Shown here: piece by piece, positions 1 through 64,000 of the stretch
Position numbering within the stretch: the first letter of the stretch is position 1
Layout: the number at the start of each line of letters is the position of its first letter
Assembly (NCBI GenBank): GCA_041320535.1
Contig: JBGLNH010000001.1
Location: 2,106,490 to 2,170,489 of the forward strand
Source: Candidatus Aminicenantes bacterium
GTDB taxonomy: Bacteria; Acidobacteriota; Aminicenantia; Aminicenantales; Saccharicenantaceae
Length of the DNA stretch: 64,000 nucleotides
Reading direction: 5' to 3'
Program-made: the position numbers and the translations under genes
Notes under the pieces: generated by a model
The model's input: only the letters and a program-made list of their open reading frames with translations
The model's database searches: none
What the model was told of the DNA's origin: nothing

Positions 1-1
1 G

Positions 2-385
2 CAGGACACGATCGTCAAGGGCAACTTCACCCTGAGCCTGGGTCTGCGCTTCGACAAGCAGGCGTCCGGCCAGGGCGCCTACACCCGCGACGCCATCCTG
101 CCCGGCACGCCCGCCTGGGACCGCGTCTTCACATCCGCCACGTCCAGCATCCTCGACCCGATCCTGCCCGACGTCCCGGTCGAGCCCGTCAAGGGCATCG
201 CCCAGGTCGTCGACGGCGAGGACCGGCCCTACCAGTGGAACGTCCTCTCGCCGCGCATCGGCCTGACCTGGGACGTCACCGGCGACGGCAAGACCGTGGC
301 CAAGCTGGCCCTGTCGCAGTACGGCGACATCATGGGCGTCGGCTGGTACACGGCCACCCCCTACGGCACCGGCGGCTCCATGGCC
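2..385 (+). CDS. TonB-dependent-receptor-like outer-membrane beta-barrel protein, internal fragment with no start and no stop
   Basis: Frame-2 translation reads QDTIVKGNFTLSLGLRFDKQ...NVLSPRIGLTWDVTGDGKTVAKLALSQYGD with strong C-ending codon bias. Protein-like sequence ends near 385, where the frame turns Arg/Gly/Pro-rich. Confidence 0.5.
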
Positions 386-392
386 CGCTTCA

Positions 393-521
393 GGCCCGGC
401 CGGGCCGGCCGAGGAGGCCGGCCATGCCGCCGGCGGCCGCGAGGCCCATGGAGACGAAGTGCTGGTGGGCGAGCTCCATCCCGGGCCGGATGCCGTGGGC
501 GCCGTGGCGCTCCCACTACTA
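393..521 (-). other. In-frame continuation of the GH15-like gene after a tandem TAG-TAG (516-521)
   Basis: It is in the same frame as ORF 519..1601. The 41 sense codons WERHGAHGIRPGMELAHQHFVSMGLAAAGGMAGLLGRPGRA carry the host C3 codon bias. The stretch ends at TGA 390-392, next to the inferred junction. Confidence 0.45.
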
Positions 522-1601
522 GCGCCGGTTGGTCAGGAGCCCGGACGGCCCGTGGCGGAACCCGGGCCGGAGCGGGAACGCGGCCGCCCGCTCGATCCTC
601 CTCCAGTTGTCCGCGATGAGGTCGCGGTCGCCCGTCCAGTCGAGATAGGAGCCCAGGGCGAAGAGCAGGACGCCGTTCTGGTCGAACTCGCTCTCCTGCC
701 AGGGGCGGAACCGGCCCGAGTCCATGGTCGCGCCCCGGCCGTCGAGGAGCTCGGTCAGGAGCCGGGAGAACATCGTCCGCGCCAGCGCGGCCTGGCCGGA
801 CATGGCCAGGGCCAGGGCGATGAGGGACTGGTCGCGGACCCACTCGAGGTTGTACTGCCAGATGCCGCCGTCGAGCCGGCCCGAGGCCGAGACCGCGGCC
901 CGGAGCTGGGTCTTGGCGGCCGCGAAGAAGCGGTCGAGGACGCGATCGGAGGAGCTGAAGGAGGCCGTCGCGTCCCAATAGGCCGCCGTCCCGGCCGGCT
1001 CGCCCGGGCCGTCGACGGGACGGAGCCCGACGGAGGGGCTGGCGCCCCGCCTGGAGAGACGGTATTCCAGGAAGACGGATTGAGGGCGCCCGGCCCGGAG
1101 GACGAGGTCGGTCGCGACCGTCCGGCCCCCGGCGCCCGTCTCGATCCGGACGCGCGACGGGGCGGCCGCGGTCCGGGACACCGTGACCCGGCGCATGACC
1201 CTCGCCGACCTGAGGTCCGGGACGAAGAAGAGCTCGGTCACGCGATAGCCGCCGCTCCGCCACTCGACCTCGACGCGCGGGTCGGCGCCCCCGGCCGCCC
1301 ATCGGGCCCGGACACGCGGCCCGCCGGCGCGATGGACCCTGCCGCCGGCCGACAGGGAGACGGCCGTGCGGGCCAGCCCGCCCGCTTCGTCGAACGTCAG
1401 CGCCGCCCGCTTGGGGCCGAACCGCTCGGGGTCCATGATCAGGAGACCGACGGCCGTCGCGCCCTCGGCCGGAGCGACCTGCACGGCGGCCTGGACGAGC
1501 CCGTTCCCGAGGAAGAAATAATCGACGCCGGCGAGGGTCGTCTTTCCGTCGACGGGCCCGCGCGAGGGATCGTCGGAGTAGAAGTGCTCCCGGACCTCCA
1601 T
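519..1601 (-). CDS. Glycoside hydrolase family 15-like (glucoamylase/trehalase-type six-hairpin) protein, N-terminal 360 aa, ended by tandem amber codons
   Basis: ORF track 360 aa. An N-terminal beta-sandwich-like region is followed by GGIWQYNLEWVRDQSLIALALAMSG, the W-x-RD motif context of GH15 catalytic domains. It is far shorter than typical GH15 proteins. Confidence 0.6.
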   Translation of the reverse strand: MEVREHFYSDDPSRGPVDGKTTLAGVDYFFLGNGLVQAAVQVAPAEGATAVGLLIMDPERFGPKRAALTFDEAGGLARTAVSLSAGGRVHRAGGPRVRARWAAGGADPRVEVEWRSGGYRVTELFFVPDLRSARVMRRVTVSRTAAAPSRVRIETGAGGRTVATDLVLRAGRPQSVFLEYRLSRRGASPSVGLRPVDGPGEPAGTAAYWDATASFSSSDRVLDRFFAAAKTQLRAAVSASGRLDGGIWQYNLEWVRDQSLIALALAMSGQAALARTMFSRLLTELLDGRGATMDSGRFRPWQESEFDQNGVLLFALGSYLDWTGDRDLIADNWRRIERAAAFPLRPGFRHGPSGLLTNRR

Positions 1602-1659
1602 GGCGGTGATTATATGTAGAGGGAGGCGTCGAAAGCAACCCGGCCGGGGCCGGCGGGCC

Positions 1660-1860
1660 TCAGGACCGGGTCGGGCCGCGGAGGATGCGGGCGGGCAGGG
1701 TGATCAGGGCCTTGAACAGATCGAAGGCGGCGCTGACCGTGATGCCGAGCAGCCGCAGCGGCAGGAGCAGCAGCCAGACGACGGGGTAGAGCAGGAGGGC
1801 CAGGAGGGCGATCGGCCAGCTGATCACGAGAAGGATGAGCCACAGAAGGAATTTCGTCAT
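1660..1860 (-). CDS. Small integral membrane protein (66 aa, two hydrophobic helices)
   Basis: ORF MTKFLLWLILLVISWPIALLALLLYPVVWLLLLPL... A GGAGAG Shine-Dalgarno-like motif lies just upstream on the minus strand (1866-1872 region). Confidence 0.55.
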   Translation of the reverse strand: MTKFLLWLILLVISWPIALLALLLYPVVWLLLLPLRLLGITVSAAFDLFKALITLPARILRGPTRS

Positions 1861-1922
1861 CGGTCTCTCCTCGCCTGACTATACGGCCGGCCGTCCGGAA
1901 AGGTTCACCCCCCGAGGTTGGC

Positions 1923-3014
1923 TTGCCGCCCCGGACCGGATACAATACGCCCGTGGTCCTCATCAGCGGCATCGCCGTCGTCGACCTGATCGCCAGCGGC
2001 CTCGAGCGGCCGGCCCGCCCCGGCGAGCTGGTTTTCTGCTCGGTCCGGACCTCCCTCGGCGGCCACGCCTGCAACGTCTCGGCCGATCTCGTCCGGCTGG
2101 GCTTCCCCGCGTCCGAGCTGCGGGTCGTCTTCCCGGCCGGGCGCGACCTGTTCGGGGAGTTCCTCGTCCGCCGGCTCGGCGAGCAGGGCCTCCGTGTCGA
2201 GCCGGTCCTCACCGACCGGGCCCCGACCTCGCTCGACCTCATCCTCGTCGCCGGGAACGAGGACCGGCGCTATCACGCCGACCCCGGGGCCAACGTCGAG
2301 ATGGAGGCCGCTCCCGTCCTCGACCTCCTCGAGCGTCACCGGCCGCTCGTCTTTTACGCCGGAGGCGTCGGCCTCCTCGGCCGTTTCGACGCCGCTCTCG
2401 GACGGGTCCTGGGGCGGGCCAAGCGCCTGGGCGCGCTGACGTTCGTCGACGTCGTCAGCCCGTACCGCAAGGGCTGGGCGTTCCTCCGCCGGGCCCTGCC
2501 CTCGACGGACGTCTTCCACTGCAACGGCGACGAGGCCCGGGCCCTCACGGGGGAGCGCGCGCCGGCCGCGGCCGCGCGGGCCATCCGCCGGCTGGGGGCG
2601 GGGAACGTCTTCGTCACGCTGGGGGGAGAGGGGGCCGTGGCCGCCGTTCCCGGGGCCGTCCTCCGCGCCCCCGCCTTCTCCGTCCGGGCGGCCGATCCCA
2701 CGGGCGCCGGCGACGCCTTCTCGGCCGGCCTCGTCATGCGGCTCCACGGTCTTCTCGACGGAGGCCGCCGCGCGGAGGACCTCAGCGCGGAGGATTGGAA
2801 GGGGGCCCTGGTCTACGCCTCCGCGTGCGGCGCCGTCTGCGCGACCGGGATCGGCACGACCACCGCGGTGGAGGGGAAGAAGGTCGAGGCCCTCGTCCGC
2901 GGGCAGGGGAGAGCCCTGGCGCGGAGCGTCGCCTTCGAGCCCGAGGCTCAGGCGCGGGCGAATTCGTCGCGCGCCTCGCGGAGGGCGAGGACGTTGCGGG
3001 GCTCGCAGTCGTAG
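1923..3014 (+). CDS. PfkB-family carbohydrate kinase (ribokinase-like)
   Basis: 363-aa ORF with N-terminal VVLISGIAVVDLI and the C-terminal PfkB signature DPTGAGDAFSAG. The 3' end overlaps the convergent URO-D-like gene. Confidence 0.8.
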   Translation: MPPRTGYNTPVVLISGIAVVDLIASGLERPARPGELVFCSVRTSLGGHACNVSADLVRLGFPASELRVVFPAGRDLFGEFLVRRLGEQGLRVEPVLTDRAPTSLDLILVAGNEDRRYHADPGANVEMEAAPVLDLLERHRPLVFYAGGVGLLGRFDAALGRVLGRAKRLGALTFVDVVSPYRKGWAFLRRALPSTDVFHCNGDEARALTGERAPAAAARAIRRLGAGNVFVTLGGEGAVAAVPGAVLRAPAFSVRAADPTGAGDAFSAGLVMRLHGLLDGGRRAEDLSAEDWKGALVYASACGAVCATGIGTTTAVEGKKVEALVRGQGRALARSVAFEPEAQARANSSRASRRARTLRGSQS

Positions 3015-3979
3015 GCGACGACGCCGCACCCGAACAGGAACCCCGGCTGGCCCTTCGCGGCCTCGAGGACGCGGCGCGCCGCGGCCCGGACCTCCTCCGG
3101 CGTTCCGGTGTGGACGAGACGGGCGTCGACGGAGGCCCGCAGGGCCCGCCCCTCCTCCCGGCACCTCCCGAGGAACAGCGCCAGGTCGGACCCGGCGTCG
3201 CAGAGGAGCTGGCTTGCCCCGGTCCGGATGAGGTCCTCCAGGATCGAGGTCGTGTCGCCGCCGACGATCAGGGGCGTCCAGCGCGCCCCGGCCTGCCGCA
3301 GCGCGGGGACGACGAAGTCGCGGTAGGCCGGCAGGACGAACTCGCGGAAGACCCGCGGCGAGGCCGCCGCCGGGGAGGCTTTGGAGTCGAACACGATCGG
3401 CTCGACGCCGCGCTCGAGGAAGGCCCGGCCGAAGTCGACCGCCGTCCGGGCCGCCCAGTCGACGACCTTGCGGACGAACGCCGGGTCCTCGACCGTGGCG
3501 ACGAGGAGCGCTTCCGAGCCGGCGACGGCCGAGGCCAGCGAGAAGGGCCCGGTCAGGGCGCCGCGGACGACGATCTCTCCCCCCCGGGCCTTCCGGAGCC
3601 GGGCCGCCGCCTCGACGAAGAGGGGCATCCGCCCGTCCCGCGCGGGATCGGGCCGGCCGAGCTTGGCCAGGTCGCCGGGGCCGCCGACGAGCGGCGCGGA
3701 CACGGCCGGCACGTCCGGGCCGGGGCCGAAGTAGCGGACCTCGCAGCCGGCCGCCTCGGCCTCGACGTTGTAGACGTCGACGCCCACGGTGAGGGCGTCG
3801 GGATCGTAGGTTTCGAGCTCCTTCTCCAGGGCCTCGACGAGGAGATCGAGGCTGCGGCAGACCTCGGAGGGCGAGCGGCCGACGAGACGGGCCTTGTGCT
3901 CGTAGACGGCGGGCACGAAGGGGGGCTTGTCGACGGGCTCGAGGGCGCAGGCCCGCTCGAACCGCTCGCGCTTGGTCAT
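2948..3979 (-). CDS. Uroporphyrinogen decarboxylase (URO-D) family protein, MtaA/CmuA-like fold
   Basis: Protein-like sequence starts at ATG 3979 (MTKRERFERACALEPVDKPPFVPAVYE...). The part of the ORF-track entry upstream of that is Arg/Pro-rich junk. The length of 343 aa is typical of the family. Confidence 0.7.
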   Translation of the reverse strand: MTKRERFERACALEPVDKPPFVPAVYEHKARLVGRSPSEVCRSLDLLVEALEKELETYDPDALTVGVDVYNVEAEAAGCEVRYFGPGPDVPAVSAPLVGGPGDLAKLGRPDPARDGRMPLFVEAAARLRKARGGEIVVRGALTGPFSLASAVAGSEALLVATVEDPAFVRKVVDWAARTAVDFGRAFLERGVEPIVFDSKASPAAASPRVFREFVLPAYRDFVVPALRQAGARWTPLIVGGDTTSILEDLIRTGASQLLCDAGSDLALFLGRCREEGRALRASVDARLVHTGTPEEVRAAARRVLEAAKGQPGFLFGCGVVAYDCEPRNVLALREARDEFARA

Positions 3980-4223
3980 AGGAAATCGGGCACGGCCGTG
4001 CCGATGACGACGATGGCGAAGGCGGCCAGGAGAAGGCCGAGGTAATAGAGGAGCTTGCGGAAGACGGCGGCCTTGATCCGCTGCTGCCGGCTGGACACGA
4101 ACCGGACGAGCGAGAGGTACCACCCGAGCGAGCCCGCCCCGACCGCCCCGGTGAAGGCCACGGCCGTCCAGCCCTCCAGCCGGCTGTGGAGCAGGCCCGT
4201 CACGGTGCCGGCGACGGCATCCG
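3976..4223 (-). CDS. Integral membrane protein, C-terminal fragment (N-terminus lost at the junction near 4225)
   Basis: ...ADAVAGTVTGLLHSRLEGWTAVAFTGAVGAGSLGWYLSL...LLYYLGLLLAAFAIVVIGTAVPDFL. Its stop overlaps the start of the URO-D-like gene. No credible start lies before the junction. Confidence 0.45.
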
Positions 4224-6116
4224 CACTACCCGTCCAACCAGCCGCCGCTCGCCCCGAGCCCGCTCGTCAAGCTGCCCATCGGGTCGATCGAGCCGCGCGG
4301 CTGGCTCATGGCCCAGCTCCAGCTCATGCGGGACGGGCTCACCGGCCGGCTGGCGGAGCTCAGCCGCTTCCTCGGCGACGACAGCGGCTGGATCACGCAC
4401 AAGGGCCGGGGCTGGGAAGAGATGCCCTACTGGCTCAAGGGCTACGGCGATCTGGGCTATCTTCTCAAGGACGCCGCCATGCGCAAGGAGACCGAGCGCT
4501 GGCTCCAGCACGCCATCCGCTCCCAGGCCCAGGACGGCTATTTCGGCCCGTCCGACAACCGCGAGGCCCGGGACCTTTGGCCGAACATGGTCATGCTGGC
4601 CGCCCTCCAGAGCTTCTACGAGGCCACCGGCGACCGGCGCGTCCTTTCCCTCATGAGCCGCTATTTCCAGTACGAGTTCCACCTCCCGGCCGGGGACCTC
4701 CTGCCCGGAAGCTGGCAGAAGCTCAGGGGCGGGGAGAACCTCGAGAGCGTCTACTGGCTTTACAACCGCACCGGGGAGAGCTTCCTCCTCGACCTGGCGC
4801 GCAAGCTCTACGCGCGGACCTCGGATTGGGCCTTGCCCATCCTCAGCCCGGCCCGGGACCGCGACTGGGCCGAAAGCTCCTTCTATCACGGCGTCAACAT
4901 CGCCATGGGCTTCCGCTATCCCGCGGTCTTCTATCAGCAGGCCCGCGACGCCGCCCTTCTCGAGGCCGCGGAGCGCAACTACCGCCTGGTCATGGCCCGA
5001 TACGGCCGCCAGCCGGGGGGGATGTTCGGGGCCGACGAGAACATCCGCCCGGGCAAGGAGGACCCCCGGCAGGGGGCCGAGACCTGCACCATGGTCGAGT
5101 TCATGGCCAGCTTCGAATCGCTTCTCAGGATAACGGGGGAGACCGTCTGGGCCGACCGGGCCGAGGAAGTCGCCTTCAATTCGCTGCCCGCGGCGATGAC
5201 GCCCGACCTCAAGGGCCTGCACTACCTCACGGCGGCCAACCTGATCTCCTGCGACGCCGGCGGGGACCACGACTTCCAGAACTCCGGGACCCTCCTCTCT
5301 TTCGATCCCGGGAGCTACCGGTGCTGCCAGCACAACGTCGCCTTCGGCTGGCCGTATTTCGCCGAGCACCTCTGGATGGCCACGGCGGACGGCGGCTTGG
5401 CCGCCGTGATCTACGCCCCCTCGGCCGTCCGGGCCAAGGTCGCCGAAGGGGCGGAGGTCGAGTTCCTCGAGGAGACCTCCTATCCGTTCGAGGACGAGGT
5501 CCGGCTGACCGTGTCGTGCGAGCGGCCCGCCGCGTTCCCTCTCTATCTCAGGCTGCCCGGCTGGTCGAAAGAGGTCCGGATCACGGTCAACGGCGTTCCC
5601 GTCGAGGGCCATTTCCCCGGCGGCCGCTACGCCGTCCTCCGGCGGACCTGGCGGCACGGGGACCAGGTCCGGCTGGAGTTCGGACCGTCGATCGAGATCG
5701 TCTCCTGGCCGTCCGTGCGCGGCGCCGTCTCGGTCCGCCGCGGCCCGCTGTGGTACGCCCTGAGGATCGGCGAGGACTGGCGCAGGTACGGCGGCACGGA
5801 GGCCTGGCCCGCCTTCGAGGTGCTGCCGACGACGGCCTGGAACTACGGCCTGGTCATGGGACCGGGAGACGCGGCCCCGCCCGTCCGGCTGGCCTCGCGG
5901 CGGGCGCCCGCCTATCAGCCGTTCACGGCCGAAGACGCCCCCATCGTCCTCAAGGCCCGGGCCCGCCGCGTCCCCGCCTGGAAAGAGGAGGGGCGCATGG
6001 CCGGGACCGTTCCGGCCAGCCCGGCGGCCGCCGAAGGCCCGGTCGAGGAGATCGAGCTCATCCCCATGGGCTGCGCCCGGCTGAGGATCTCGTCGTTCCC
6101 CGTCGTCAGGGATTGA
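4224..6116 (+). CDS. Glycoside hydrolase family 127-like (DUF1680, beta-L-arabinofuranosidase family), lacking start codon and signal peptide
   Basis: The frame is open upstream of the listed ATG 4308 (..HYPSNQPPLAPSPLVKLPIGSIEPRGWLMAQLQL..). The body (YWLKGYGDLGYLL, QGAETCTMVEFMASF, CCQHNVAFGWPYF) is typical of DUF1680/GH127. Confidence 0.75.
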   Translation, partial: HYPSNQPPLAPSPLVKLPIGSIEPRGWLMAQLQLMRDGLTGRLAELSRFLGDDSGWITHKGRGWEEMPYWLKGYGDLGYLLKDAAMRKETERWLQHAIRSQAQDGYFGPSDNREARDLWPNMVMLAALQSFYEATGDRRVLSLMSRYFQYEFHLPAGDLLPGSWQKLRGGENLESVYWLYNRTGESFLLDLARKLYARTSDWALPILSPARDRDWAESSFYHGVNIAMGFRYPAVFYQQARDAALLEAAERNYRLVMARYGRQPGGMFGADENIRPGKEDPRQGAETCTMVEFMASFESLLRITGETVWADRAEEVAFNSLPAAMTPDLKGLHYLTAANLISCDAGGDHDFQNSGTLLSFDPGSYRCCQHNVAFGWPYFAEHLWMATADGGLAAVIYAPSAVRAKVAEGAEVEFLEETSYPFEDEVRLTVSCERPAAFPLYLRLPGWSKEVRITVNGVPVEGHFPGGRYAVLRRTWRHGDQVRLEFGPSIEIVSWPSVRGAVSVRRGPLWYALRIGEDWRRYGGTEAWPAFEVLPTTAWNYGLVMGPGDAAPPVRLASRRAPAYQPFTAEDAPIVLKARARRVPAWKEEGRMAGTVPASPAAAEGPVEEIELIPMGCARLRISSFPVVRD

Positions 6117-6140
6117 CACTCTTTTGGGGCATCCTATATA
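6113..6140 (+). promoter_or_regulatory. Sigma-70-type promoter for mscL (TTGACA-N16-TATATA)
   Basis: TTGACA at 6113-6118 and TATATA at 6135-6140. AAGGAGG at 6162-6168 precedes ATG 6174. Confidence 0.55.
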
Positions 6141-6173
6141 TAAGGGGCAGGAACGAATTCCAAGGAGGTCCGG

Positions 6174-6578
6174 ATGTTCAAAGAGTTCAAAGAGTTCGCC
6201 ATGCGCGGCTCCGTCCTGGACATGGCCGTCGGCATCATCATCGGCGCGGCCTTCGGGTCCATCGTCTCGTCGCTCGTCGCCGACATCCTCATGCCGCCCA
6301 TCGGCCTGGCCCTCGGCAAGGTCGACTTCGCCAACCTCGTCATCCGCCTGTCCGAGACGGTCACGATCAACTACGGCAAGTTCATCAACGCGGTCATCAG
6401 CTTCCTGATCGTCGCTTTTTCGCTGTTCCTGGTCATCCGGGCGATGAACCGGCTGAAGAGGAAAGCCGAGGCCCCCGCCGCGCCCGCCGCCCCGGCGACG
6501 AAGGACTGTCCCTTCTGCGCCACGGCCGTCCCGATCAAGGCGGTCCGCTGCCCCCACTGCACCTCCGACCTGAGATAG
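6174..6578 (+). CDS. mscL: Large-conductance mechanosensitive channel MscL with a C-terminal CxxC...CxxC tail
   Basis: [44 protein letters not shown] is the canonical MscL N-terminus and TM1. The tail reads [24 protein letters not shown]. Confidence 0.9.
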
Positions 6579-6606
6579 CGCTCCGTCCCGCGCGTCGCTG
6601 CGGACC

Positions 6607-7740
6607 TTGACCTCCAAAGAGCGGATGGCCGCCGCCATGACGGGCGGGCGACCCGACCGGGTGCCCGTCATGTGCCAGATGAGCGTCGGCCACATGCTGC
6701 TGCAGAGCGGCGTCCGTCCGGCCGCTTTCTGGCACGACGCCGGCGCCTTCGCCGACGTTCTCCTGGCGATGCGGGAGCGATACGCCTTCGACGGCATCCT
6801 CGTCAGCCTCCACGGCCATCGGCCCGGCTGGGAGAGGCTCGTGGCCGGCGCCAGGCGCGGCCCGGACGGGGAGACCGTCCGCTGGAGATCGGGCGGATCG
6901 ACCTTCTTCCCCCCGGACGACCTGCCCGTCGACCGTCCGGACGGCGCGCCCGGGCCTCCGGAATTCGCCCGCTTCGATCCGGCCTCGCTGCCCGGGCGCA
7001 TCGCCTACATCCCGGTCTCCCAGGGCCTGCGCTTCGCCCTCGATCCGGACCGCCTCTTCGACGCGGTCTCCATGGTCCTCGGGCGGGCCGGGCAGGAGCG
7101 CTCCGTCCACGGAGAGGTGACCTCGCCCCTCGACTACTATCTTGACCTCTTCGGCTTCGAGCCGGCCATGATCGGCTGTCTCGAGGACCCCGGCCGGGCC
7201 CGGGCGGTCCTCGGGCGGTTCACGGACGGCCTCGTCGAGCTCGCCGAAGGCCTCGCCGCGACCGGGGTCGACGCGGTCAAGATCTCGTCGCCGTTCGCCG
7301 GCGCGGGCTTTCTGTCGAGGCCGTTCTACCGGCGGTTCGTCCTGCCCTTCGAGTCCCGGATCGCGCGGGCCATCGAAGCCCGCGGCGCTCGGGCCTACCT
7401 CCACACCTGCGGCGACGTCCACGACCGCCTGGAGCTCATGGCCGATTCGGGCGCCTCGGGGATCGAGTGCCTCGACCCGCCGCCGCTCGGGCGGGTCGAA
7501 CTCGCGGACGCCAAGGCCCGCGTCGGCGGCCGGGTCTTCATCAAGGGCAACATCGATCCCGTGCACGTTCTCCTCGCGGGCGACGAGGAGGCGGTCCGGG
7601 CCGACGCCCGCCGCAGGATCGCCGTCGGAAAACCCGGCGGCCGCTACATCCTGAGCAGCGCCTGCTCGATCGCGCCGCGCACGCCTGCCGCCAACGTCGC
7701 CGTCCTGAGCGAGATCGCCGAGGCCTGCGGCGCGTATTGA
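6607..7740 (+). CDS. Uroporphyrinogen decarboxylase (URO-D) family protein, second paralog
   Basis: 377-aa ORF with MAAAMTGGRPDRVPVMCQMSVGHM..., ...AYLHTCGDVHDRLELMADSGASGIECLDP and ...GRYILSSACSIAP. The start could be TTG 6607 or ATG 6625. Confidence 0.7.
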   Translation: MTSKERMAAAMTGGRPDRVPVMCQMSVGHMLLQSGVRPAAFWHDAGAFADVLLAMRERYAFDGILVSLHGHRPGWERLVAGARRGPDGETVRWRSGGSTFFPPDDLPVDRPDGAPGPPEFARFDPASLPGRIAYIPVSQGLRFALDPDRLFDAVSMVLGRAGQERSVHGEVTSPLDYYLDLFGFEPAMIGCLEDPGRARAVLGRFTDGLVELAEGLAATGVDAVKISSPFAGAGFLSRPFYRRFVLPFESRIARAIEARGARAYLHTCGDVHDRLELMADSGASGIECLDPPPLGRVELADAKARVGGRVFIKGNIDPVHVLLAGDEEAVRADARRRIAVGKPGGRYILSSACSIAPRTPAANVAVLSEIAEACGAY

Positions 7741-56503: not shown

Positions 56504-56522
56504 GGGCCGCGCCTTTCTATAG

Positions 56523-57375: not shown

Positions 57376-58751
57376 ACAGCATCCGCAACATCTTCAGCAT
57401 CCCCGAGCTCCGCAAGAGGGTCATCTTCACCCTCCTCCTCCTGGCGGTCTACCGGATCGGCGGGCAGCTCCCCAATCCGGGGATCAGCTCCGCGGCGCTG
57501 GCCGAGTTCTGGCAGACCCAGAAGGGCTCCCTCCTCGGCTTCATCGACCTCTTCTCGGGGCGGAACATGTCGCAGATGACCATCTTCGCCCTGGGCATCA
57601 TGCCCTATATCAGCGCCTCGATCATCCTCCAGCTCCTGACCGTCGTCTGGCCGTACCTCGAGCGCCTGTCCAAGGAGGGCGAGCTCGGCCGGAAGAAGAT
57701 CACCCAGTACACCCGCTACGGCACGATCTTCATCTGCCTCATCCAGGCCTTCGGCATCGCCATCTTCCTCGAGTCGCTCAAGACGCCGGCCGGGGCCTCG
57801 GTCGTCCCCAGCCCGGGCTGGGGCTTCAAGCTCCTGACCATCCTGACCCTGACCACGGGGACCGTCTTCGTCATGTGGCTGGGCGAGCAGATCTCGGAGC
57901 GGGGCATCGGCAACGGCATCTCGCTCATCATCTTCGCCGGCATCGTCGTCAGCTTCCCGACCGGCCTCAACAGCATGATCGCCGGCCTCCGGACGGGCAG
58001 CATGGACCCGCTCAAGATGCTCTTCCTCGGCGCCCTCATGGTCGCCGTCATCGCCTTCATCGTCTTCGTCGAGCGCGGCCAGCGGCGCATCCCTGTGTCC
58101 TACGCCAAGCGCGTCGTCGGCCGCAAGGTCTACGGAGGCCAGAGCACGCACCTGCCGCTGCGCGTCAACACGGGCGGCGTCATCCCGATCATCTTCGCCG
58201 CCTCGGTCATCACCATCCCGCAGACGATGGCCACCCTGATCAAGGTCCCCGTCATCCAGTCGATCGCCGTCCAGTTCGGCATGGGCATGCCCCTCTACAA
58301 CCTCGTCTACATCGCGGCCATCATCTTCTTCACCTACTTCTACATCTCGATCATCTTCAATCCGGTCGACGTCGCCGACAACCTCCGCAAGTACGGCGGC
58401 TTCATCCCCGGCATCCGCCCGGGCAAGAACACCTCCGACTACATCGACGACGTCCTCAGCCGGATCACCCTGGCGGGCGCGGTCTATCTCGCCGCCGTGG
58501 CCATCCTGCCGGAGTTCATGATCACCGGCTTGCGCGTCCAGGCCCTGCCCTGGATCGGGCCCTGGCTGGACGCCAACCTGCCCGGGTTCATGACCCAGGG
58601 GCTGGGCGTCGACTTCATGTTCGGCGGGACGTCGATCCTCATCGTCGTCGGCGTGGCCATGGACACGATGCAGCAGATCGAGGCCCAGCTCGTCATGCGC
58701 CATTACGACGGCTTCATGCGCCGCAGCCGCATCCGCGGGAGGCGCGGATGA
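57369..58751 (+). CDS. secY: Preprotein translocase subunit SecY
   Basis: MLDSIRNIFSIPELRKRVIFTLLLLAVYRIG.., GIMPYISASIILQLL, 10-TM pattern, 460 aa. Confidence 0.95.
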   Translation: MLDSIRNIFSIPELRKRVIFTLLLLAVYRIGGQLPNPGISSAALAEFWQTQKGSLLGFIDLFSGRNMSQMTIFALGIMPYISASIILQLLTVVWPYLERLSKEGELGRKKITQYTRYGTIFICLIQAFGIAIFLESLKTPAGASVVPSPGWGFKLLTILTLTTGTVFVMWLGEQISERGIGNGISLIIFAGIVVSFPTGLNSMIAGLRTGSMDPLKMLFLGALMVAVIAFIVFVERGQRRIPVSYAKRVVGRKVYGGQSTHLPLRVNTGGVIPIIFAASVITIPQTMATLIKVPVIQSIAVQFGMGMPLYNLVYIAAIIFFTYFYISIIFNPVDVADNLRKYGGFIPGIRPGKNTSDYIDDVLSRITLAGAVYLAAVAILPEFMITGLRVQALPWIGPWLDANLPGFMTQGLGVDFMFGGTSILIVVGVAMDTMQQIEAQLVMRHYDGFMRRSRIRGRRG

Positions 58752-59419
58752 GGATCATCCTCCTGGGCGCTCCCGGAAGCGGGAAGGGGACCGTCGCCGA
58801 GGCCCTGCGCTCGGCCTACGGGGTCCCCAAGATCTCCACGGGAGATCTGCTCCGGGAAGCCGTCCGGGACAAGACCCCCCTCGGCCTCGTCGCCGCGTCC
58901 CAGATGGGCAAAGGCGGCCTGGTCGACGACGCGACCGTCCTGGCCCTGCTCCGCCAGCGCCTGGACCGCGAGGACTGCCGGCGGGGCTACGTCCTCGACG
59001 GCTTCCCGCGCAACCTGGCCCAGGCCGAGAGCCTCGAGGCCCTGGGGCCGGACGGGCCGGAGATCGTCTTCGACCTCCGCGTCACGGAGGAGACCGTCCT
59101 GTCCCGCCTGGCCGACCGGCGGTCCTGTCCGGAGTGCGAGGCCATCTATCACCTCGTCAACAAGCCCCCCCGGCAGCCGGGCCTCTGCGACGTCTGCGGC
59201 TCGGCCCTGGTCCAGAGGGCGGACGACACCCCCGAGGTCATCCGCGAGAGGCTCAAGACCCACCGCGCCAAGACCGAGCCCCTGGTCGCCCGCTACGCGG
59301 CCAAGGGCGTCCTTCACGCCATCGACGCCAACGGCGAGGCGGCGGACGAGATCGCGGCGGTCCTCCGGGTCCTGGAACCCCTCCTGGGCCGGAAGACGGG
59401 AGCGGGGGGGGCGCGATGA
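58748..59419 (+). CDS. adk: Adenylate kinase (Zn-lid type)
   Basis: MRIILLGAPGSGKGT.., GYVLDGFPRN, CPECEAIYH...CDVCG lid. Confidence 0.95.
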   Translation: MRIILLGAPGSGKGTVAEALRSAYGVPKISTGDLLREAVRDKTPLGLVAASQMGKGGLVDDATVLALLRQRLDREDCRRGYVLDGFPRNLAQAESLEALGPDGPEIVFDLRVTEETVLSRLADRRSCPECEAIYHLVNKPPRQPGLCDVCGSALVQRADDTPEVIRERLKTHRAKTEPLVARYAAKGVLHAIDANGEAADEIAAVLRVLEPLLGRKTGAGGAR

Positions 59420-60165
59420 TCACCTTCAAGTCCGCGGCCGAGCTCGCGGGCCTGCGCCAGAGCAGCCGCATCGTGGCCGCCGTCCTCGGCGAGCTCGAGC
59501 CGCTCGTCCGGCCGGGCCTGCGCACGCGTGACCTCGACCTCTACGCCGAGAAGCGGACCCGCGAGCTGGGGGCCGTGCCCGCCTTCAAGGGCTACCGGGG
59601 CTACCCGGCCTCGGTCTGCGTCTCGGTCAACGAGGAGATCATCCACGGCATCCCCTCGGGCCGCATCCTCCAGGAGGGCGACATCGTCAGCCTCGACTTC
59701 GGCGTCCTCTTCGAGGGTTTCTACAGCGATTCGGCCCTCACCGTCCCGGTCGGCCGGGTCTCGCCGGAGGCGGAGAGGCTCATCGCCGCGGCCGAGCGGT
59801 CCTTCCACAAGGGCCTCGAGCGGATGCGGGACGGCGCGCGCCTGTCCGACGTCTCGGCGGCCATCCAGGAGTCGGTCGAGAGCGAGGGCTTCTCGGTCAT
59901 CCGCCAGTTCGTCGGCCACGGCATCGGACGCTCCCTTCACGAGGAGCCCCAGGTCCCCAACTTCGGGGTCCCGGGCCGCGGCCCGAAGATCCGCCCCGGC
60001 CTGACCGTGGCCATCGAGCCCATGATCGCCGCCGGCGGCCACGAGGTAGAGATCCTGGAGGACGGCTGGACGGCCGTGACCCGGGACCGGAGCCTGGCCG
60101 CCCATTTCGAGCACACGGTGGCCATGACCGAGAACGGCCCGGAGATCCTCAGCGCGCGGACCCCG
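59416..60165 (+). CDS. map: Type I methionine aminopeptidase (natural stop probably lost at junction)
   Basis: MITFKSAAELAGLRQSSRI.., GYPASVCVSVNEEIIHGIP, DIVSLDFG, FVGHGIG, AIEPM, HFEHTV. Confidence 0.9.
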
Positions 60166-60853
60166 GAAGCTGGATATACAAATTCAAATCGAAGATGTCC
60201 TCGACCCGGTTGAGCGCGCGGGCGATGTCCTGCCCTTCGTAGCTGGCTTCACCGAAGTCGTGTTCGGTCCTCCCATAGAGCGCGGCGATAGAGACCCGCC
60301 GAGACGCCTGCCAAAGGACGAGCCCGTCGAACCGGTTGGATCTCTCTCGGATGTTGAGGTCCAATTCAGGGCTGAGCCTGTTGCGGACGTCGGAAATCCC
60401 GCCCCCTGCCTGGAAGTAGAGCCGCTCCAAGGCGATATGGACCTGTCCCCGGAACCGGTTGTTCAAGGTCCGCTCTCTCTCTGTCGACAGGTAGAACATA
60501 TACTGAGGGAATTCGAATAGATCGACGATGATCGTCTTGCTCAAGGGGATCAAGAGCTGTATGCGGGCGCCCGCCGAAGCCGAGTAATCGGGTACCGGCG
60601 TGGCGGTGAAGCCGTAATAGATATCGGTATCATAACCCGCGTTGGTGAGCTCGAAAGAACCGTTCGCGCGCATAAATCCGAGCTTCCATCGAGCCGAATC
60701 GACGATTCTTGCCAAGCTTTCGCCGGCCCATGTGCCCCCTTGTCCAAACAATGTCCCCGGCGACAAGGTTATCCAGGTACTCAGAATCGCGGCTATGGCG
60801 ATGGCCGCTCGGCGCTTCGCATGGTGTATCATGGCTTTTTCCTTAGGGAACAA
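60166..60853 (-). CDS. Outer-membrane beta-barrel-like protein (C-terminus missing), lower GC
   Basis: MIHHAKRRAAIAIAAILSTWITLSPGTLFGQ signal, with ATG 60832 a plausible start. Tyr/Phe-rich alternating strands. It lies downstream of the sugar-transferase gene. Confidence 0.5.
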
Positions 60854-60862
60854 TCCCGCGTC

Positions 60863-62269
60863 CTAGTAAGCCCCTATCCCGAACAGGACCACGGGTACCG
60901 TCTTCATCAGGATCTTGGCGTCGAGCCAGAGCGACCAGTTGTCCAGGTACTCGAGGTCGAGCTTCATCCAGTCCTCGAAGGCGATGTTGTTCCGGCCGTT
61001 GACCTGCCAGAGGCAGGTGATGCCGGGCTTCATCGAGAACCGGCGCCGCTGCCAGTCCTTGTACTTGTCGACCTCGTCGGGGACCGTCGGCCGCGGGCCG
61101 ACGATGCTCATGTGGCCGACGAAGACGTTGATGAGCTGGGGCAGCTCGTCGATGCTGAACTTCCTCATGAAGCGCCCGACCGGCGTGATCCAGCTAGTCT
61201 TCTTCTCCCGGAATTCGGGCGTCGTCATGGAGTCGAGATCGTCGACTTCGGACAGGACGTCGTGGGCGCCCTGGCGCATCGTCCGGAACTTGTAGAGCGT
61301 GAACCTCCGGCCGGCGAGCCCCAGGCGGCCCTGTTTGAAGAACACCGGGCCCTTGGACGTCGCCTTGATGAGGATGGCCATGATGAGGAACAGAGGCGAC
61401 AGGACGAGAAGGCCGAGGCCGGAGGAAGCGAAATCGAACAGGCGCTTGACGAGAAGCTCCCACTCCTTGGCGTGGGTCGTCTTGAAGTGGAGCAGGGGCA
61501 TGCCGTCGAGCTCGGCCACCGACGACCTGGCCAGCTTCGTGTCGAAGAGGTCCACGGCGACCGTCACCGTGACCCCCTCGGTCTCGCAATCCTCGATGGC
61601 CCCTTGGAGCGAGTTGAGCAGGGAGCGAGGCACGACGAAGACGACCTCGTCCACGGCGTCCCGGTGGAATATCTTTGGGATCTCCTCGAGCGTTCCGATG
61701 ACCGGGAGCCGCCCGACCTGGGTCACTCCCCGGCCGGGCTCGTCGTCGATGGCCCCGAGGATCTCGAACCCCCATTCCGGGTGCTTGTCGGCCTTCCTCG
61801 CGAACTCCATGGCTCTCTTGCCTGTCCCGACGATCAGGAGCCGGCGGGTGTTGAGGCCCTGGCGGCGGACGTAATGCGAGCTCATGAAGATGGCCGTCTT
61901 CTCGAGCCAGATGAACAGGAAGCTGAAGCCCATGAACAGGAGGAAGAACAGCCGGCTCATGAAGTCGAGCTTGATGAGGAAGATGAACGTGCCCAGGAGC
62001 AGGAACGTCGCCACGGCGGACTTGACGACGGCCCAGAGGATCTCGAGATAGGAGCGGGTCCGCATGGACTGGTAGAGGCCGTTCGCGTAGAGGGCCAGGC
62101 ACCAGTAGGGTATGGCGAAGACCAGGGCCAGCCAGAACTTGAGGAGCGCAACGGGAGCGTCCGTCAGCAGATTGTGGAACAGGAACGCGAAGAGGTAGGC
62201 CAGGGCCAGCACGCAGACGTCGACGAAGATCACGAACCTGCGAAGAGTGACCTCCTTCTCCTTCAGCAT
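60863..62269 (-). CDS. Polyprenyl-phosphate glycosyl-1-phosphate transferase (WbaP/EpsB-type EPS priming enzyme)
   Basis: N-terminal TM bundle; ..KRLFDFASSGLGLLVLSPLFLIMAILIK..GPVFFKQGRLG..FTLYKFRTM..IDELPQLINVFVGHMSIVGPRP.. Confidence 0.9.
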   Translation of the reverse strand: MLKEKEVTLRRFVIFVDVCVLALAYLFAFLFHNLLTDAPVALLKFWLALVFAIPYWCLALYANGLYQSMRTRSYLEILWAVVKSAVATFLLLGTFIFLIKLDFMSRLFFLLFMGFSFLFIWLEKTAIFMSSHYVRRQGLNTRRLLIVGTGKRAMEFARKADKHPEWGFEILGAIDDEPGRGVTQVGRLPVIGTLEEIPKIFHRDAVDEVVFVVPRSLLNSLQGAIEDCETEGVTVTVAVDLFDTKLARSSVAELDGMPLLHFKTTHAKEWELLVKRLFDFASSGLGLLVLSPLFLIMAILIKATSKGPVFFKQGRLGLAGRRFTLYKFRTMRQGAHDVLSEVDDLDSMTTPEFREKKTSWITPVGRFMRKFSIDELPQLINVFVGHMSIVGPRPTVPDEVDKYKDWQRRRFSMKPGITCLWQVNGRNNIAFEDWMKLDLEYLDNWSLWLDAKILMKTVPVVLFGIGAY

Positions 62270-62309
62270 CGTTTCGAGCCCCTCGGGTAGGAAAACCTCC
62301 CCTGATTAT

Positions 62310-62789
62310 CTACTTTTTCTCGATCTGCCGCAAGACCTTTGCGGGATTGCCCGCCACGATCGTCCAGGGGGGGACGTCCTTGGTGACGACCGATCCTGCC
62401 CCGACGATGGCCCCCTCGCCGACCGTCACCCCGGCCAGGATCGTGGCGCTCGAGCCGACCGATGCGCCCTTCCTGATGAAGGTCGGGACGACCTTCCAGT
62501 CGGCCTCCGTCTGGAGGCCGCCGCCTTCGGCGGTCGACCGGGGGTACATGTCGTTGATAAATGTGACGTTGTGGCCGATGAAGACGTCGTCCTCGACGGT
62601 CACGCCCTCGCAGATGAAGGTGTGCGAGGAGATCTTGCAGTTCCGGCCGATGAAGGCGTTCTTCTGGATCTCGACGAACGTGCCGACCTTGGTGTTGTCG
62701 CCGATCGCGCAGCCGTAGAGGTTTACGAAGGCGAAGATCTTGACGTCTTTCCCCAGCTTGACGTCGGGCGATACTCTGCAGAATTCCAT
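62310..62789 (-). CDS. Hexapeptide-repeat (left-handed beta-helix) sugar N/O-acetyltransferase
   Basis: ..IGDNTKVGTFVEIQKNAFIGRNCKISSHTFICEGVTVEDDVFIGHNV..GASVGSSATILAGVTVGEGAIVGAGSVV.. Confidence 0.85.
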   Translation of the reverse strand: MEFCRVSPDVKLGKDVKIFAFVNLYGCAIGDNTKVGTFVEIQKNAFIGRNCKISSHTFICEGVTVEDDVFIGHNVTFINDMYPRSTAEGGGLQTEADWKVVPTFIRKGASVGSSATILAGVTVGEGAIVGAGSVVTKDVPPWTIVAGNPAKVLRQIEKK

Positions 62790-62799
62790 GGGCCCTCCT

Positions 62800-63816
62800 T
62801 TACAGCGCGATGCGCTTGCCGCCGCTCTTGATGGACTCGTCCGCGGCTTCGAGGAGGCGGACCACCTGGAGCCCGGACCGGCCGTCGTTGAAGGGCTCCC
62901 GGCCCTTCTCGACGCACTCGACGAAGTACTGGGCCTCGGCCTTGAGGGCCTCGGTCCCCTCGAGCTTGGGGATGTGGACGTCGCCCGACCGGTAGCTCAC
63001 GAGGAGCTCGTGGATGCCGTTCTTGCCCCCGTTGGCGCTCTTGACGTCGACGCCCCGGTCGTAGATCTTGATCTTCTCGTCGGCGCTGATGTCGTCCCAG
63101 ACCAGCATCTTCTTGTCGCCGCTGATCAGGGTTTGGCGGACCTTGACCGGGCTCAGCCAGTTGACGTGGAAGTGGGCGATGAAGCCGTTGCCCTCGAACT
63201 CCACGCAGAGGTAGGCGATGTCCTCGAATCCGCCCTCGAAATGGACGGAGCCGTGGGCGGATATGGCCACCGGCTTCTTGTCGATGGCGTAGGCCATGAT
63301 GGACAGGTCGTGGGGGGCCAGGTCCCAGATGACGTTGACGTCGTGCTGGAAGAGCCCCAGGTTGACCCGGACCGAGTCGTAGAACAGGAGCTTGCCCAGC
63401 TCGCCCTTGTCGATGACCTCCTTGATCTTCCTGACCGCCCCGGTGAAGAGGAAGGTGTGGTCGACCATGATCCGGAGGTTCTTCTTGGCCGCGAGTTCGA
63501 CGAGCTCCTTGGCCTGAGCGCTCGTCGAGGTGAAGGGCTTCTCGACGAAGATGTGCTTGCCAGCGAGGAGGGCCGCCTTGGCCAGATCGTAGTGGGCGAA
63601 GACGGGCGTGACGATGGCCACGGCGTCGACGTCCGCGGACCGGATGAGCTCCAGGGGGTCTTTCATCCCCCTGATGAAGGGGTAGTGGTTCTGGGCCAGG
63701 CCGAGGCGCTTTTCCGAGACGTCGCTGACCGCGACGAGCTTCGCTCCGGCCGTGCCGTGGAAGTTGCGGGCCACGTTGGGGCCCCAATAGCCGTAGCCGA
63801 CGACACCGATGCGTGC
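62800..63816 (-). CDS. Gfo/Idh/MocA-family NAD-dependent sugar-nucleotide oxidoreductase (first residues missing)
   Basis: RIGVVGYGYWGPNVARNF.., ..HIFVEKPF... No start codon lies before the junction at ~63816. Confidence 0.8.
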   Translation of the reverse strand, partial: ARIGVVGYGYWGPNVARNFHGTAGAKLVAVSDVSEKRLGLAQNHYPFIRGMKDPLELIRSADVDAVAIVTPVFAHYDLAKAALLAGKHIFVEKPFTSTSAQAKELVELAAKKNLRIMVDHTFLFTGAVRKIKEVIDKGELGKLLFYDSVRVNLGLFQHDVNVIWDLAPHDLSIMAYAIDKKPVAISAHGSVHFEGGFEDIAYLCVEFEGNGFIAHFHVNWLSPVKVRQTLISGDKKMLVWDDISADEKIKIYDRGVDVKSANGGKNGIHELLVSYRSGDVHIPKLEGTEALKAEAQYFVECVEKGREPFNDGRSGLQVVRLLEAADESIKSGGKRIAL

Positions 63817-64000
63817 GAGAACCGCAGCAGCGCCAGCCCGGCGTAGAACAGGACGACCGCCGCGCCGTAGATCCGGGCCAGGCGCGTCCCGGACGCGTCC
63901 GGCCGCCGGCCCGGCCGGACCAGGCTCCCGACGCCTCCCCACAGGAGCCAGGAACCGAGCACCAGTCCGAAGACGAGTTCGTTGCCGGTGAACTCGGCCG
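63817..64000 (-). CDS. Integral membrane protein fragment running off the window edge
   Basis: AEFTGNELVFGLVLGSWLLWGGVGSLVRPGRRPDASGTRLARIYGAAVVLFYAGLALLRF (minus-strand frame). Confidence 0.35.

What the first reader, a model, noticed from the sequence alone, without database searches (positions are those of the whole stretch)
1..64000. The window is a mosaic of about 18 unrelated ~3.7-kb blocks, probably size-sorted short contigs joined head to tail
At roughly 390, 4225, 7983, 11675, 15590, 19385, 23109, 26858, 30590, 34314, 38040-38060, 41756, 45466, 49176, 52870-52916, 56522, 60165 and 63816, recognisable protein sequence ends abruptly. Usually two unrelated genes are truncated at the same point:
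- saccharopine-DH N-terminus against the HD-GYP C-terminus at 7983
- TrkH running in frame into RpoC residue ~20 at 19385
- RpoC into a TPR protein at 23109
- a PQQ propeller into the transaldolase C-terminus at 45466
- TamB against an isoprenoid-synthase half at 49176
- an RHH antitoxin leader against the S5 C-terminus at 56522

The spacing is very narrow (3.6-3.9 kb) and drifts downward. By my hand estimates the mean block length is about 3.80 kb for the first five blocks, 3.73 kb for the next five, 3.69 kb for the next five and 3.65 kb for the last two. No biological rearrangement process I know gives such regular spacing. Concatenating contigs from a length-sorted, fragmented draft or MAG does.

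The consequence is that synteny arguments across these points are invalid, and any 'system' must fit inside one block.
Basis: partly seen in the sequence, partly recalled or inferred. Interest (0 to 1): 0.75.

Follow-up and report, generated by a model that had tools for sequence, protein, structure and literature searches.

The report
Short contigs joined head to tail
The window is not one stretch of chromosome but about 18 separate ~3.7-kb assembly fragments of one uncultured bacterium pasted end to end inside a 2.43-Mb database record, so gene order across the joins means nothing.

Summary
The window contains 18 abrupt discontinuities, which delimit 17 complete blocks of 3639-3913 nt (mean 3731, CV 1.8%).

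- **Exact joins.** Thirteen joins are fixed to the base. Contigs from three sibling metagenome-assembled genomes (99.1-100% identical) match one block, stop matching at its end, and continue into different genes.
- **Neighbours torn apart.** Blocks B10 and B14 lie 11.2 kb apart in the window. In two siblings they sit on one contig, 231 nt apart, and split a single 439-aa gene.
- **Essential genes cut.** rpoC is cut at both ends (E. coli beta' residues 13-1264) and rpsE is cut mid-domain.
- **No biological signature.** There are no repeats and no N spacers at the joins.
- **Public record.** The chimeric 1619-aa ORF (TrkH, then RpoC, then read-through) is on record on exactly one NCBI sequence of 2,434,628 nt. 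The public record as held therefore already contains the joins.

Block length falls along the window (Spearman rho -0.81). The ordering is only approximate, because 4 of 16 adjacent steps go up.

Verdict: this is a data artefact, a draft genome concatenated into a pseudo-molecule, not biology. Any system called here must fit inside one block.

The parts
1..390 (.). B0: tail of the preceding contig. It carries an internal fragment of an outer-membrane beta-barrel protein (+ frame, 2 to ~380).
   Evidence: Translation. Weak OMP_b-brl_4 hit, profile positions 378-457 of 838. The right end is approximate (380-395) and has no sibling alignment.
391..4217 (.). B1 (3827 nt): 360-aa hypothetical (-), PfkB kinase (+), URO-D family protein (-).
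   Evidence: Pfam. The right end is set by the start of B2's sibling alignment at 4218. The exact-protein look-up failed, so there is no sibling for B1 itself.
4218..7989 (.). B2 (3772 nt): GH127 lacking its first 43 codons, MscL, URO-D, and the first 60 codons of saccharopine dehydrogenase.
   Evidence: 99.7-99.8% identical to L130 2124-5897 and to L131. Both contigs continue on both sides.
7990..11674 (.). B3 (3685 nt): HD-domain protein (-) lacking its last 46 codons, 667-aa hypothetical (-), first 85 codons of carA (+).
   Evidence: 99.1% identical to L125 8343-4658, which lies inside a 28,445-nt sibling contig.
11675..15587 (.). B4 (3913 nt): 825-aa protein with a CarboxypepD_reg domain, then the first 415 codons of a Ser/Thr kinase whose full-length relative is 797 aa.
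   Evidence: Pfam. The 460-aa read-through ORF 14342-15724 is on record only on the 2,434,628-nt sequence, and a 797-aa cluster mate (P0014) exists. Both limits come from the neighbours' alignments.
15588..19375 (.). B5 (3788 nt): first 32 codons of a TPR-CHAT gene (-), DUF362, TrkA, and TrkH codons 1-318 of 479.
   Evidence: 99.8% identical to L121 3586-7373 within an 11,659-nt sibling contig. That contig continues into PadR and an ADOP-like permease, not rpoC.
19376..23112 (+). B6 (~3737 nt): internal fragment of rpoC only, equivalent to E. coli beta' residues 13-1264 of 1407.
   Evidence: Translation; search against solved structures. The left end comes from B5's alignment. The right end (23110-23114) comes from the end of the RpoC similarity.
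23113..26863 (.). B7 (~3751 nt): TPR protein (+) with its N-terminus apparently cut, and a radical-SAM protein (-).
   Evidence: Pfam. The right end is set by the start of B8's alignment at 26864.
26864..30589 (.). B8 (3726 nt): N-terminal 139 codons of an unknown gene (-), Pta (-), AckA (+), and the C-terminal 228 of 366 codons of an M42 peptidase (-).
   Evidence: 99.9% identical to L133 555-4280 and L134 375-4100. Both contigs continue. The Peptidase_M42 match covers profile positions 93-292 only.
30590..34312 (.). B9 (3723 nt): ROK protein, DUF481, a rubredoxin-like/FeThRed_B protein, and an E1 dehydrogenase cut at profile position 281 of 300.
   Evidence: Pfam. Both limits come from the alignments of B8 and B10.
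34313..38034 (.). B10 (3722 nt): part of a 126-aa gene (-), OmpA-like protein, methyltransferase, the C-terminal 190 codons of a 439-aa gene (-), and a 105-nt tail (37930-38034) that matches no sibling.
   Evidence: 99.9-100% identical to L135 2978-6594, L136 and L137. The tail was examined.
38035..41756 (.). B11 (3722 nt): starts 30 nt inside a ~162-nt structured repeat; then S49 peptidase (-), ECF sigma factor, a 265-aa protein, and the first 72 codons of a 283-aa gene.
   Evidence: 99.97% identical to L127 6026-9747 within a 20,423-nt contig. L129, a 3746-nt sibling contig, is 100% identical.
41757..45477 (.). B12 (3721 nt): DsbD_N-like secreted protein (-) whose stop codon lies left of the join at 41743-41745 (so its C-terminus appears cut), FAD oxidoreductase (-), and a Metallophos-PQQ propeller protein cut at its C-terminus.
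   Evidence: 99.6% identical to L138 3501-234. L138 runs on for 233 nt past the join. Pfam.
45478..49175 (.). B13 (3698 nt): last 75 codons of a transaldolase, then a TamB-like protein whose C-terminal domain ends at the join.
   Evidence: TAL_FSA profile positions 182-280 of 285, matched from residue 1. TamB profile positions 9-379 of 381, ending at ~49182.
49176..52883 (.). B14 (3708 nt): N-terminal 172 codons of the same 439-aa gene that ends B10 (-), APH kinase, PilZ, lycopene cyclase, and polyprenyl synthetase (321 of 354 codons).
   Evidence: 99.8-99.97% identical to L135 6826-10533 and L136 5494-9201. These are the same sibling contigs that carry B10, 231 nt downstream of it.
52884..56522 (.). 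B15 (~3639 nt): TolC-like OEP protein (the upstream extension of its frame overlaps the polyprenyl synthetase gene, so its N-terminus appears cut), PIF1/RecD-like helicase with a WYL domain (-), PIN (-), RHH (-).
   Evidence: Pfam. The left end comes from the end of B14's alignment. The right end comes from the S5 fragment.
56523..60170 (+). B16 (~3648 nt): last 52 codons of ribosomal protein S5, then SecY, Adk and Map.
   Evidence: Ribosomal_S5_C profile positions 28-71 of 71. SecY and ADK. Peptidase_M24.
60171..63810 (.). B17 (3640 nt): unknown gene (-), Bac_transf sugar transferase (-), hexapeptide transferase (-), and a Gfo/Idh/MocA oxidoreductase lacking its first codons.
   Evidence: 99.6% identical to L126 3653-14. 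L126 is a stand-alone 3654-nt sibling contig with almost the same ends.
63811..64000 (.). B18: head of the next contig, carrying a membrane-protein fragment (- frame, 63813-63998).
   Evidence: Translation. The window diverges from L126 after 63810.
18420..23279 (+). Chimeric 1619-aa ORF created by two joins: TrkH 1-318, then RpoC 13-1264, then read-through into B7.
   Evidence: The ORF is present in the public protein collection on exactly one contig (NCBI, 2,434,628 nt).

Best explanation
The window is a slice of a 2,434,628-nt public sequence that was made by pasting the contigs of a fragmented metagenome-assembled genome end to end. No spacers were inserted, and the contigs were placed in roughly descending order of length. 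At this depth in the list the contigs are about 3.7 kb long, so a join occurs every ~3.7 kb.

The joins have no biological meaning. They truncate whatever gene lay at each contig end and create read-through chimeric ORFs.

Shown by tool results:
- the discontinuities;
- their spacing;
- the blocks' common origin in one population genome;
- the misplacement of true neighbours;
- the existence of a single 2.43-Mb record that holds the joins.

Inferred:
- the joining was a deliberate or accidental concatenation step, by the depositor or in an intermediate copy;
- the order derives from an assembler's size-sorted output.
For: 1. **Collinearity stops at block ends.** Nine blocks (B2, B3, B5, B8, B10, B11, B12, B14, B17) align at 99.1-100% to contigs of three sibling assemblies (GCA_041304165.1, GCA_041304065.1, GCA_041304285.1) and to Logan assemblies of runs SRR28346269 and SRR28346254. 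At 13 joins the sibling contig continues into other genes, while the window switches to unrelated sequence.
2. **True neighbours are separated.** B10 and B14 lie on one sibling contig, in the same orientation and 231 nt apart (L135 6594 to 6826; likewise L136). They split a 439-aa gene. In the window they are 11.2 kb apart.
3. **Essential genes are amputated.** rpoC covers only beta' residues 13-1264. rpsE retains only its last 52 codons.
4. **No junction signature.** There are no N runs and no repeats at the joins.
5. **Block ends recur as assembly break points.** L126 ends within 1 and 13 nt of B17's ends. L129 starts 42 nt before B11 and ends 18 nt short of its end. L132 starts 33 nt before B2. 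B11 begins inside a 162-nt repeat.
6. **The spacing is far too regular.** Lengths have a CV of 1.8% and Spearman rho -0.81. The random-breakpoint probability is ~2e-27.
7. **The joins are in the public record.** The chimeric ORFs 18420-23279 and 14342-15724 are each on record on exactly one contig, from NCBI, 2,434,628 nt long. TrkA, the ECF sigma factor and AckA list the same longest contig.
Against: - The order is not strictly by size. 4 of 16 adjacent steps rise, and B3 to B4 rises by 228 nt. A plain sort on final contig length is therefore excluded.
- I never saw the source record itself, its accession or its assembly level.
- Eight blocks (B1, B4, B6, B7, B9, B13, B15, B16) have no sibling alignment of their own.
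- Three joins (~390, ~23112, ~56522) rest on protein truncation alone.
- Tetranucleotide similarity of B4 to the rest of the window (r = 0.88) is no better than that of unrelated high-GC taxa. Its membership in the same genome is unproven.
Confidence: 0.97

Rival explanations
1. The concatenation is not in the depositor's submission. It arose in an intermediate copy, for example from lost FASTA headers when the assembly was loaded into the collection the window was drawn from. The window would still be an artefact, but the NCBI record itself would be an ordinary multi-contig draft.
For: I could not view the NCBI record. The sibling assemblies, which have nearby accession numbers, are ordinary multi-contig drafts.
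Against: - The collection labels the 2,434,628-nt contig as NCBI-sourced.
- Genes were called on it as one sequence.
- Sibling assemblies from the same source were parsed contig by contig, so a general parsing fault is unlikely.
Confidence: 0.12
2. An assembler or scaffolder wrongly joined the fragments, giving a chimeric contig produced by misassembly rather than by simple concatenation.
For: The joins carry no N spacers. One block end has a 105-nt tail that matches no sibling, which could be a local chimera.
Against: - Misassemblies occur at shared repeats, and no repeats are shared between the two sides of any join.
- Misassembly cannot give 17 consecutive pieces with a CV of 1.8% and falling length.
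- Block ends match the ends of stand-alone sibling contigs.
Confidence: 0.02
3. The mosaic is physically real: a genome or element scrambled by recombination or transposition into ~3.7-kb modules.
For: None beyond the uninterrupted sequence itself.
Against: - rpoC and rpsE would be destroyed.
- There are no junction repeats, and no mobile-element genes turned up at the joins in the ORFs I scanned.
- Four independent assemblies of the same species are collinear through the break points, with different neighbours.
- No known process yields size-ordered modules.
Confidence: 0.005

Closest known systems
Pseudo-molecule made by concatenating draft or MAG contigs (for example 'union'-type joining of a multi-FASTA file)
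   Same: - Unrelated contig ends abut directly.
- Genes are truncated on both sides of each join.
- Chimeric read-through ORFs appear.
- The total length (2.43 Mb) is that of a whole bin.
   Different: Careful pseudo-molecules insert N spacers or are ordered against a reference. Here there are no Ns. True neighbours B10 and B14 are not adjacent, so no reference ordering was applied.
Length-sorted assembler output (for example SPAdes NODE order) carried into a bin's FASTA file
   Same: Block length falls along the window. Five consecutive blocks run 3726, 3723, 3722, 3722, 3721 nt.
   Different: The order is not strict. B4 (3913 nt) follows B3 (3685 nt), and there are three smaller inversions. 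The sort key was therefore something other than the final length, perhaps the length before trimming or polishing. This is unexplained.
Contig breaks at repeats or strain-variable sites in short-read metagenome assembly
   Same: - B11 starts inside a 162-nt repeat that has a second, inverted copy 4.7 kb away in L127.
- B10 ends in a 105-nt divergent tail.
- Sibling assemblies break at the same spots.
   Different: For most block ends I have no direct evidence of what caused the break.

Membership tests
Concatenated draft-genome contigs (artefactual pseudo-molecule) | Collinearity with related genomes ends abruptly at each join, while the related contig continues into other genes. | tested here: met
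   13 of 18 joins, with 99.1-100% alignments.
Concatenated draft-genome contigs (artefactual pseudo-molecule) | Pieces that are neighbours in the real genome are placed apart in the record. | tested here: met
   B10 and B14 are 231 nt apart on L135 and L136 but 11.2 kb apart in the window.
Concatenated draft-genome contigs (artefactual pseudo-molecule) | Essential single-copy genes are truncated at joins. | tested here: met
   rpoC is cut at both ends. rpsE is cut within its C-terminal domain.
Concatenated draft-genome contigs (artefactual pseudo-molecule) | The pieces come from one genome or bin. | tested here: inconclusive
   Nine blocks recur in the same three sibling MAGs. The other eight were not testable. 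B4's tetranucleotide signature is no closer to the window than that of unrelated high-GC taxa.
Concatenated draft-genome contigs (artefactual pseudo-molecule) | The source record is a single sequence of whole-genome length that contains the joins. | tested here: met
   The chimeric ORFs are on record on one NCBI contig of 2,434,628 nt. The record itself was not seen.
Concatenated draft-genome contigs (artefactual pseudo-molecule) | No reads span the joins. | not testable with these tools
   There is no read-mapping tool. The nearest evidence is indirect: Logan per-run contig L123 passes through the join at 15587/15588 into different sequence.
Strictly length-sorted contig list | Lengths never increase along the record. 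| tested here: not met
   4 of 16 adjacent steps increase, and 18 of 136 pairs are inverted. The trend is still strong (rho -0.81).
Biological rearrangement mosaic (site-specific or transpositional) | Repeats, target-site duplications or recombinase/transposase genes at the junctions. | tested here: not met
   No shared repeats at any join. No mobile-element domains in the junction-flanking ORFs that were scanned.

The most novel reading that the evidence does not exclude
The joins are physically present in a real DNA molecule, that is, a genome or amplified element scrambled into size-graded ~3.7-kb modules. The sibling assemblies would then represent the unscrambled ancestor.
Probability: 0.004. 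Interest if true: 0.85.

Novelty: not a real feature. Interest (0 to 1): 0.07.

Why it matters
The finding matters only as data hygiene.

- **For this scan.** No operon, island or 'system' may be inferred across the 18 joins. Any ORF that spans a join is an artefact, for example the 1619-aa TrkH-RpoC fusion and the 460-aa kinase.
- **For public resources.** A 2.43-Mb sequence that looks like a single replicon is really a bag of contigs, and its chimeric ORFs have already entered a large protein collection. They could be mistaken there for novel domain fusions.
- **For other windows.** Windows from the same record will show the same pattern, with a different block size.

Tried and rejected
- **Genome-contig scan.** I spent the only scan on a 38-nt rpoC word that turned out to be conserved across many high-GC taxa. 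It returned 120 unrelated loci, all at most 80% identical to the window, so the source genome was not found that way.
- **Failed exact-protein look-ups.** Four returned nothing: 54181-55857, 519-1601, 55854-56258 and SecY. Blocks B1, B15 and B16 therefore have no sibling context. The likely reason is that the siblings differ by at least one residue and the window's own record is not shown.
- **Metagenome contigs.** An exact 75-mer from B7 found nothing. A protein-based scan with the B7 TPR protein found only a 28%-identical relative.
- **Literature.** A search for the sibling accessions and run numbers found no paper.
- **RNA genes.** Rfam and tRNA scans of the window found nothing. Rfam found nothing on the 162-nt repeat either.
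- **k-mer overlaps.** I looked for the overlaps between contig ends that de Bruijn assemblers leave, and found none.
- **Strict size order.** I asked whether strict order could be rescued by assuming unmatched 'tails' at contig ends, like B10's 105 nt. It cannot. B13 (at most 3698 nt) precedes B14 (at least 3708 nt), and both limits are fixed by sibling alignments.
- **Taxonomy.** It was not established. Sibling contigs carry ADOP-like duplicated permeases next to PadR. These match the full length of the profile but score below NCBIfam's cut-off. This is only a weak hint of Acidobacteriota.


Full report
**What the window looks like.** It is 64,000 nt at about 68% G+C. It has no N runs, no tRNA genes or Rfam matches, and no long direct or inverted repeats. 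Because of the high G+C, spurious ORFs abound. I therefore picked genes by third-position G+C.

One open frame stood out. Frame 18417-23276 on the + strand reads as TrkH, then without a stop as RpoC, and then as Arg/Pro/Ser-rich nonsense. Against solved structures, the RpoC part covers query residues 327-1566. This equals E. coli beta' residues 13-1264 of 1407, so the gene is cut at both ends.

**Test against related assemblies.** I looked up complete proteins from individual blocks by exact sequence. Eight of the 12 look-ups returned contigs from three sibling metagenome-assembled genomes (GCA_041304165.1, GCA_041304065.1, GCA_041304285.1) and from per-run Logan assemblies (SRR28346269, SRR28346254).

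blastn of the window against these contigs gave one alignment per block, at 99.1-100% identity:

| Block | Window coordinates |
|---|---|
| B2 | 4218-7990 |
| B3 | 7990-11674 |
| B5 | 15588-19375 |
| B8 | 26864-30589 |
| B10 | 34313-37929 |
| B11 | 38035-41756 |
| B12 | 42213-45477 |
| B14 | 49176-52883 |
| B17 | 60171-63810 |

In nearly every case the sibling contig carries on for kilobases beyond the alignment, into genes that are absent from the window.
- After TrkH (complete, 479 aa) the siblings have PadR and an ADOP-like permease, not rpoC.
- After the HD protein they have GlmS.

This fixes 13 joins to the base.

**The most telling result.** Sibling contigs L135 and L136 carry B10 and B14 together, in the same orientation and 231 nt apart. 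A single 439-aa gene runs across the gap. In the window the two halves of that gene lie at 37358-38034 and 49176-49692, with three other blocks between them. The order of blocks in the window is therefore not the order in the genome.

**The remaining joins.**
- **60170 and 63810.** These coincide with the ends of a stand-alone 3654-nt sibling contig, L126. Beyond 63810 the sibling has 13 more bases that hold the start codon of the Gfo/Idh/MocA gene, whereas the window switches to other sequence.
- **About 23112.** This is where the RpoC similarity stops.
- **About 56522.** The last 52 codons of ribosomal protein S5 begin here (Ribosomal_S5_C profile positions 28-71), directly after a stop codon. 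They abut an RHH-PIN pair on the other strand.
- **About 390.** A beta-barrel fragment degenerates here into wrong-frame text.
- **Other truncations.**
  - transaldolase, profile positions 182-280, starting exactly at 45478;
  - E1 dehydrogenase, cut at profile position 281 of 300 near 34318;
  - M42 peptidase, profile positions 93-292 only.

**Spacing.** The 17 complete blocks measure 3827, 3772, 3685, 3913, 3788, ~3735, ~3753, 3726, 3723, 3722, 3722, 3721, 3698, 3708, ~3639, ~3648 and 3640 nt. The mean is 3731 and the SD is 69, a CV of 1.8%. Randomly placed breakpoints would give this with probability of about 2e-27.

Length falls along the window (Spearman rho -0.81, p = 9e-5).

The order is not strict, however. 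Four of 16 adjacent steps go up, by +228, +18, +10 and +9 nt. I could not remove these inversions by assuming unmatched tails, because B13 and B14 are both bounded by sibling alignments. The sort key was therefore not the final length. I leave this unexplained.

**Are these contig ends or arbitrary cuts?** Block ends recur as break points in independent assemblies.
- L126 ends within 1 and 13 nt of B17's ends.
- L129, a 3746-nt contig that is 100% identical, starts 42 nt before B11 and stops 18 nt short of its end.
- Logan contig L132 starts 33 nt before B2.
- L137 ends 94 nt after B10's collinear part.
- B11 begins 30 nt inside a ~162-nt repeat that has a second, inverted copy in L127.
- B10 ends in a 105-nt tail that no sibling shares.

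These are the signatures of short-read assembly breaks at repeats and strain-variable sites. They are not the signatures of a synthetic shuffle.

**Where the joining happened.** An exact look-up shows that the chimeric 1619-aa ORF (18420-23279) and the read-through kinase ORF (14342-15724) are each on record on exactly one contig. That contig is NCBI-sourced and 2,434,628 nt long. TrkA, the ECF sigma factor and AckA list the same longest contig. The context tool never displayed this contig, which is consistent with it being the window's own, hidden source.

The joins therefore pre-date the cutting of the window. They sit in a single 2.43-Mb sequence the size of a whole bin. Whether the depositor or an intermediate copy did the pasting I cannot tell.

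**One genome or several?** Nine blocks recur in the same three sibling MAGs, so they belong to one population genome. Tetranucleotide correlation of each block to the rest of the window is 0.88-0.98, against 0.75-0.92 for 117 loci from other high-GC taxa. B4 (r = 0.88; G+C falls to 57% near 13-14 kb) is the least certain member.

**Rivals.**
- **A true rearrangement mosaic.** This is excluded for practical purposes. Essential genes are destroyed, there are no junction repeats and no mobile-element genes turned up at the joins, and four independent assemblies are collinear through the break points.
- **Assembler misjoins.** These would need shared repeats and could not give size-graded pieces.
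- **Loss of FASTA headers downstream of NCBI.** This remains possible, at about 0.1, but it does not change the verdict.

**Verdict.** It is an artefact with no biological content. Its only use is as a warning for every other finding drawn from this window and this record.

Noticed in passing
window 38035-38184; L127 5996-6175 and L127 1128-1287 (inverted copy): An intergenic repeat of about 162 nt with a strong predicted fold (-79 kcal/mol over 163 nt). Two inverted copies (92.6% identical) lie 4.7 kb apart in sibling contig L127 and flank the PGM-DivIC-UvrD/PDDEXK genes. The window's contig B11 starts 30 nt inside one copy. There is no Rfam match. It could be a REP/MITE-like element or a small RNA.
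   Followed up: partly
window 37930-38034: The last 105 nt of block B10 match none of three sibling contigs, which continue differently, yet the tail stays in frame with the 439-aa gene on the - strand. It is either a strain-variable segment of that gene or a chimeric contig end. No other copy was found in the window or in the loci fetched.
   Followed up: partly
window 18420-23279 (+) and 14342-15724 (+): Chimeric ORFs created by the joins are already entries in the 15-billion-protein public collection, each as the representative of its own cluster. One is a 1619-aa TrkH-RpoC fusion and the other a 460-aa kinase with a foreign tail. Searches could mistake them for novel domain fusions.
   Followed up: yes
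window 41754-41758: A TAG stop codon is formed across the B11/B12 join (t|AG). It neatly ends the truncated 283-aa gene after 72 codons. This shows how the joins can produce plausible-looking short ORFs.
   Followed up: no
window 54181-56521 (-): An RHH antitoxin and a PIN toxin lie directly upstream of a 558-aa PIF1/RecD-like helicase with a C-terminal WYL domain, with 4-nt overlaps between the genes. PADLOC gave only domain-level hits (PDC-S68, RecD-like, WYL) and no complete system.
   Followed up: partly
window 25187-26617 (-): A radical-SAM protein in B7 shows partial similarity to prokaryotic viperin models (pVip, E = 3e-16, over the radical-SAM core only). It sits next to a large TPR protein. 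This is probably generic radical-SAM similarity.
   Followed up: no
window 32592-33032 (+): A small protein combines a rubredoxin-like zinc ribbon (RUBY_RBDX) with a ferredoxin-thioredoxin reductase catalytic-chain domain (FeThRed_B).
   Followed up: no
window 44042-45477 (+): A calcineurin-like phosphoesterase (Metallophos) is fused to a PQQ/BamB-type beta-propeller. The protein is truncated by the join; the sibling gene has at least 542 codons.
   Followed up: no
window 12500-14500: G+C drops to 57-60% inside the 825-aa CarboxypepD_reg protein gene of B4, against about 68% elsewhere. B4 is also the block that breaks the size order most strongly and has the weakest tetranucleotide match to the rest. 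It may be a mis-binned or horizontally acquired contig.
   Followed up: no
L121 8001-10966; L135 173-2554: Sibling contigs carry PadR next to duplicated MacB/FtsX permeases. These match the full length of the ADOP profile (TIGR03434) but score below its cut-off (289-301 bits against 622). This is a weak hint that the organism is an Acidobacteriota member.
   Followed up: partly
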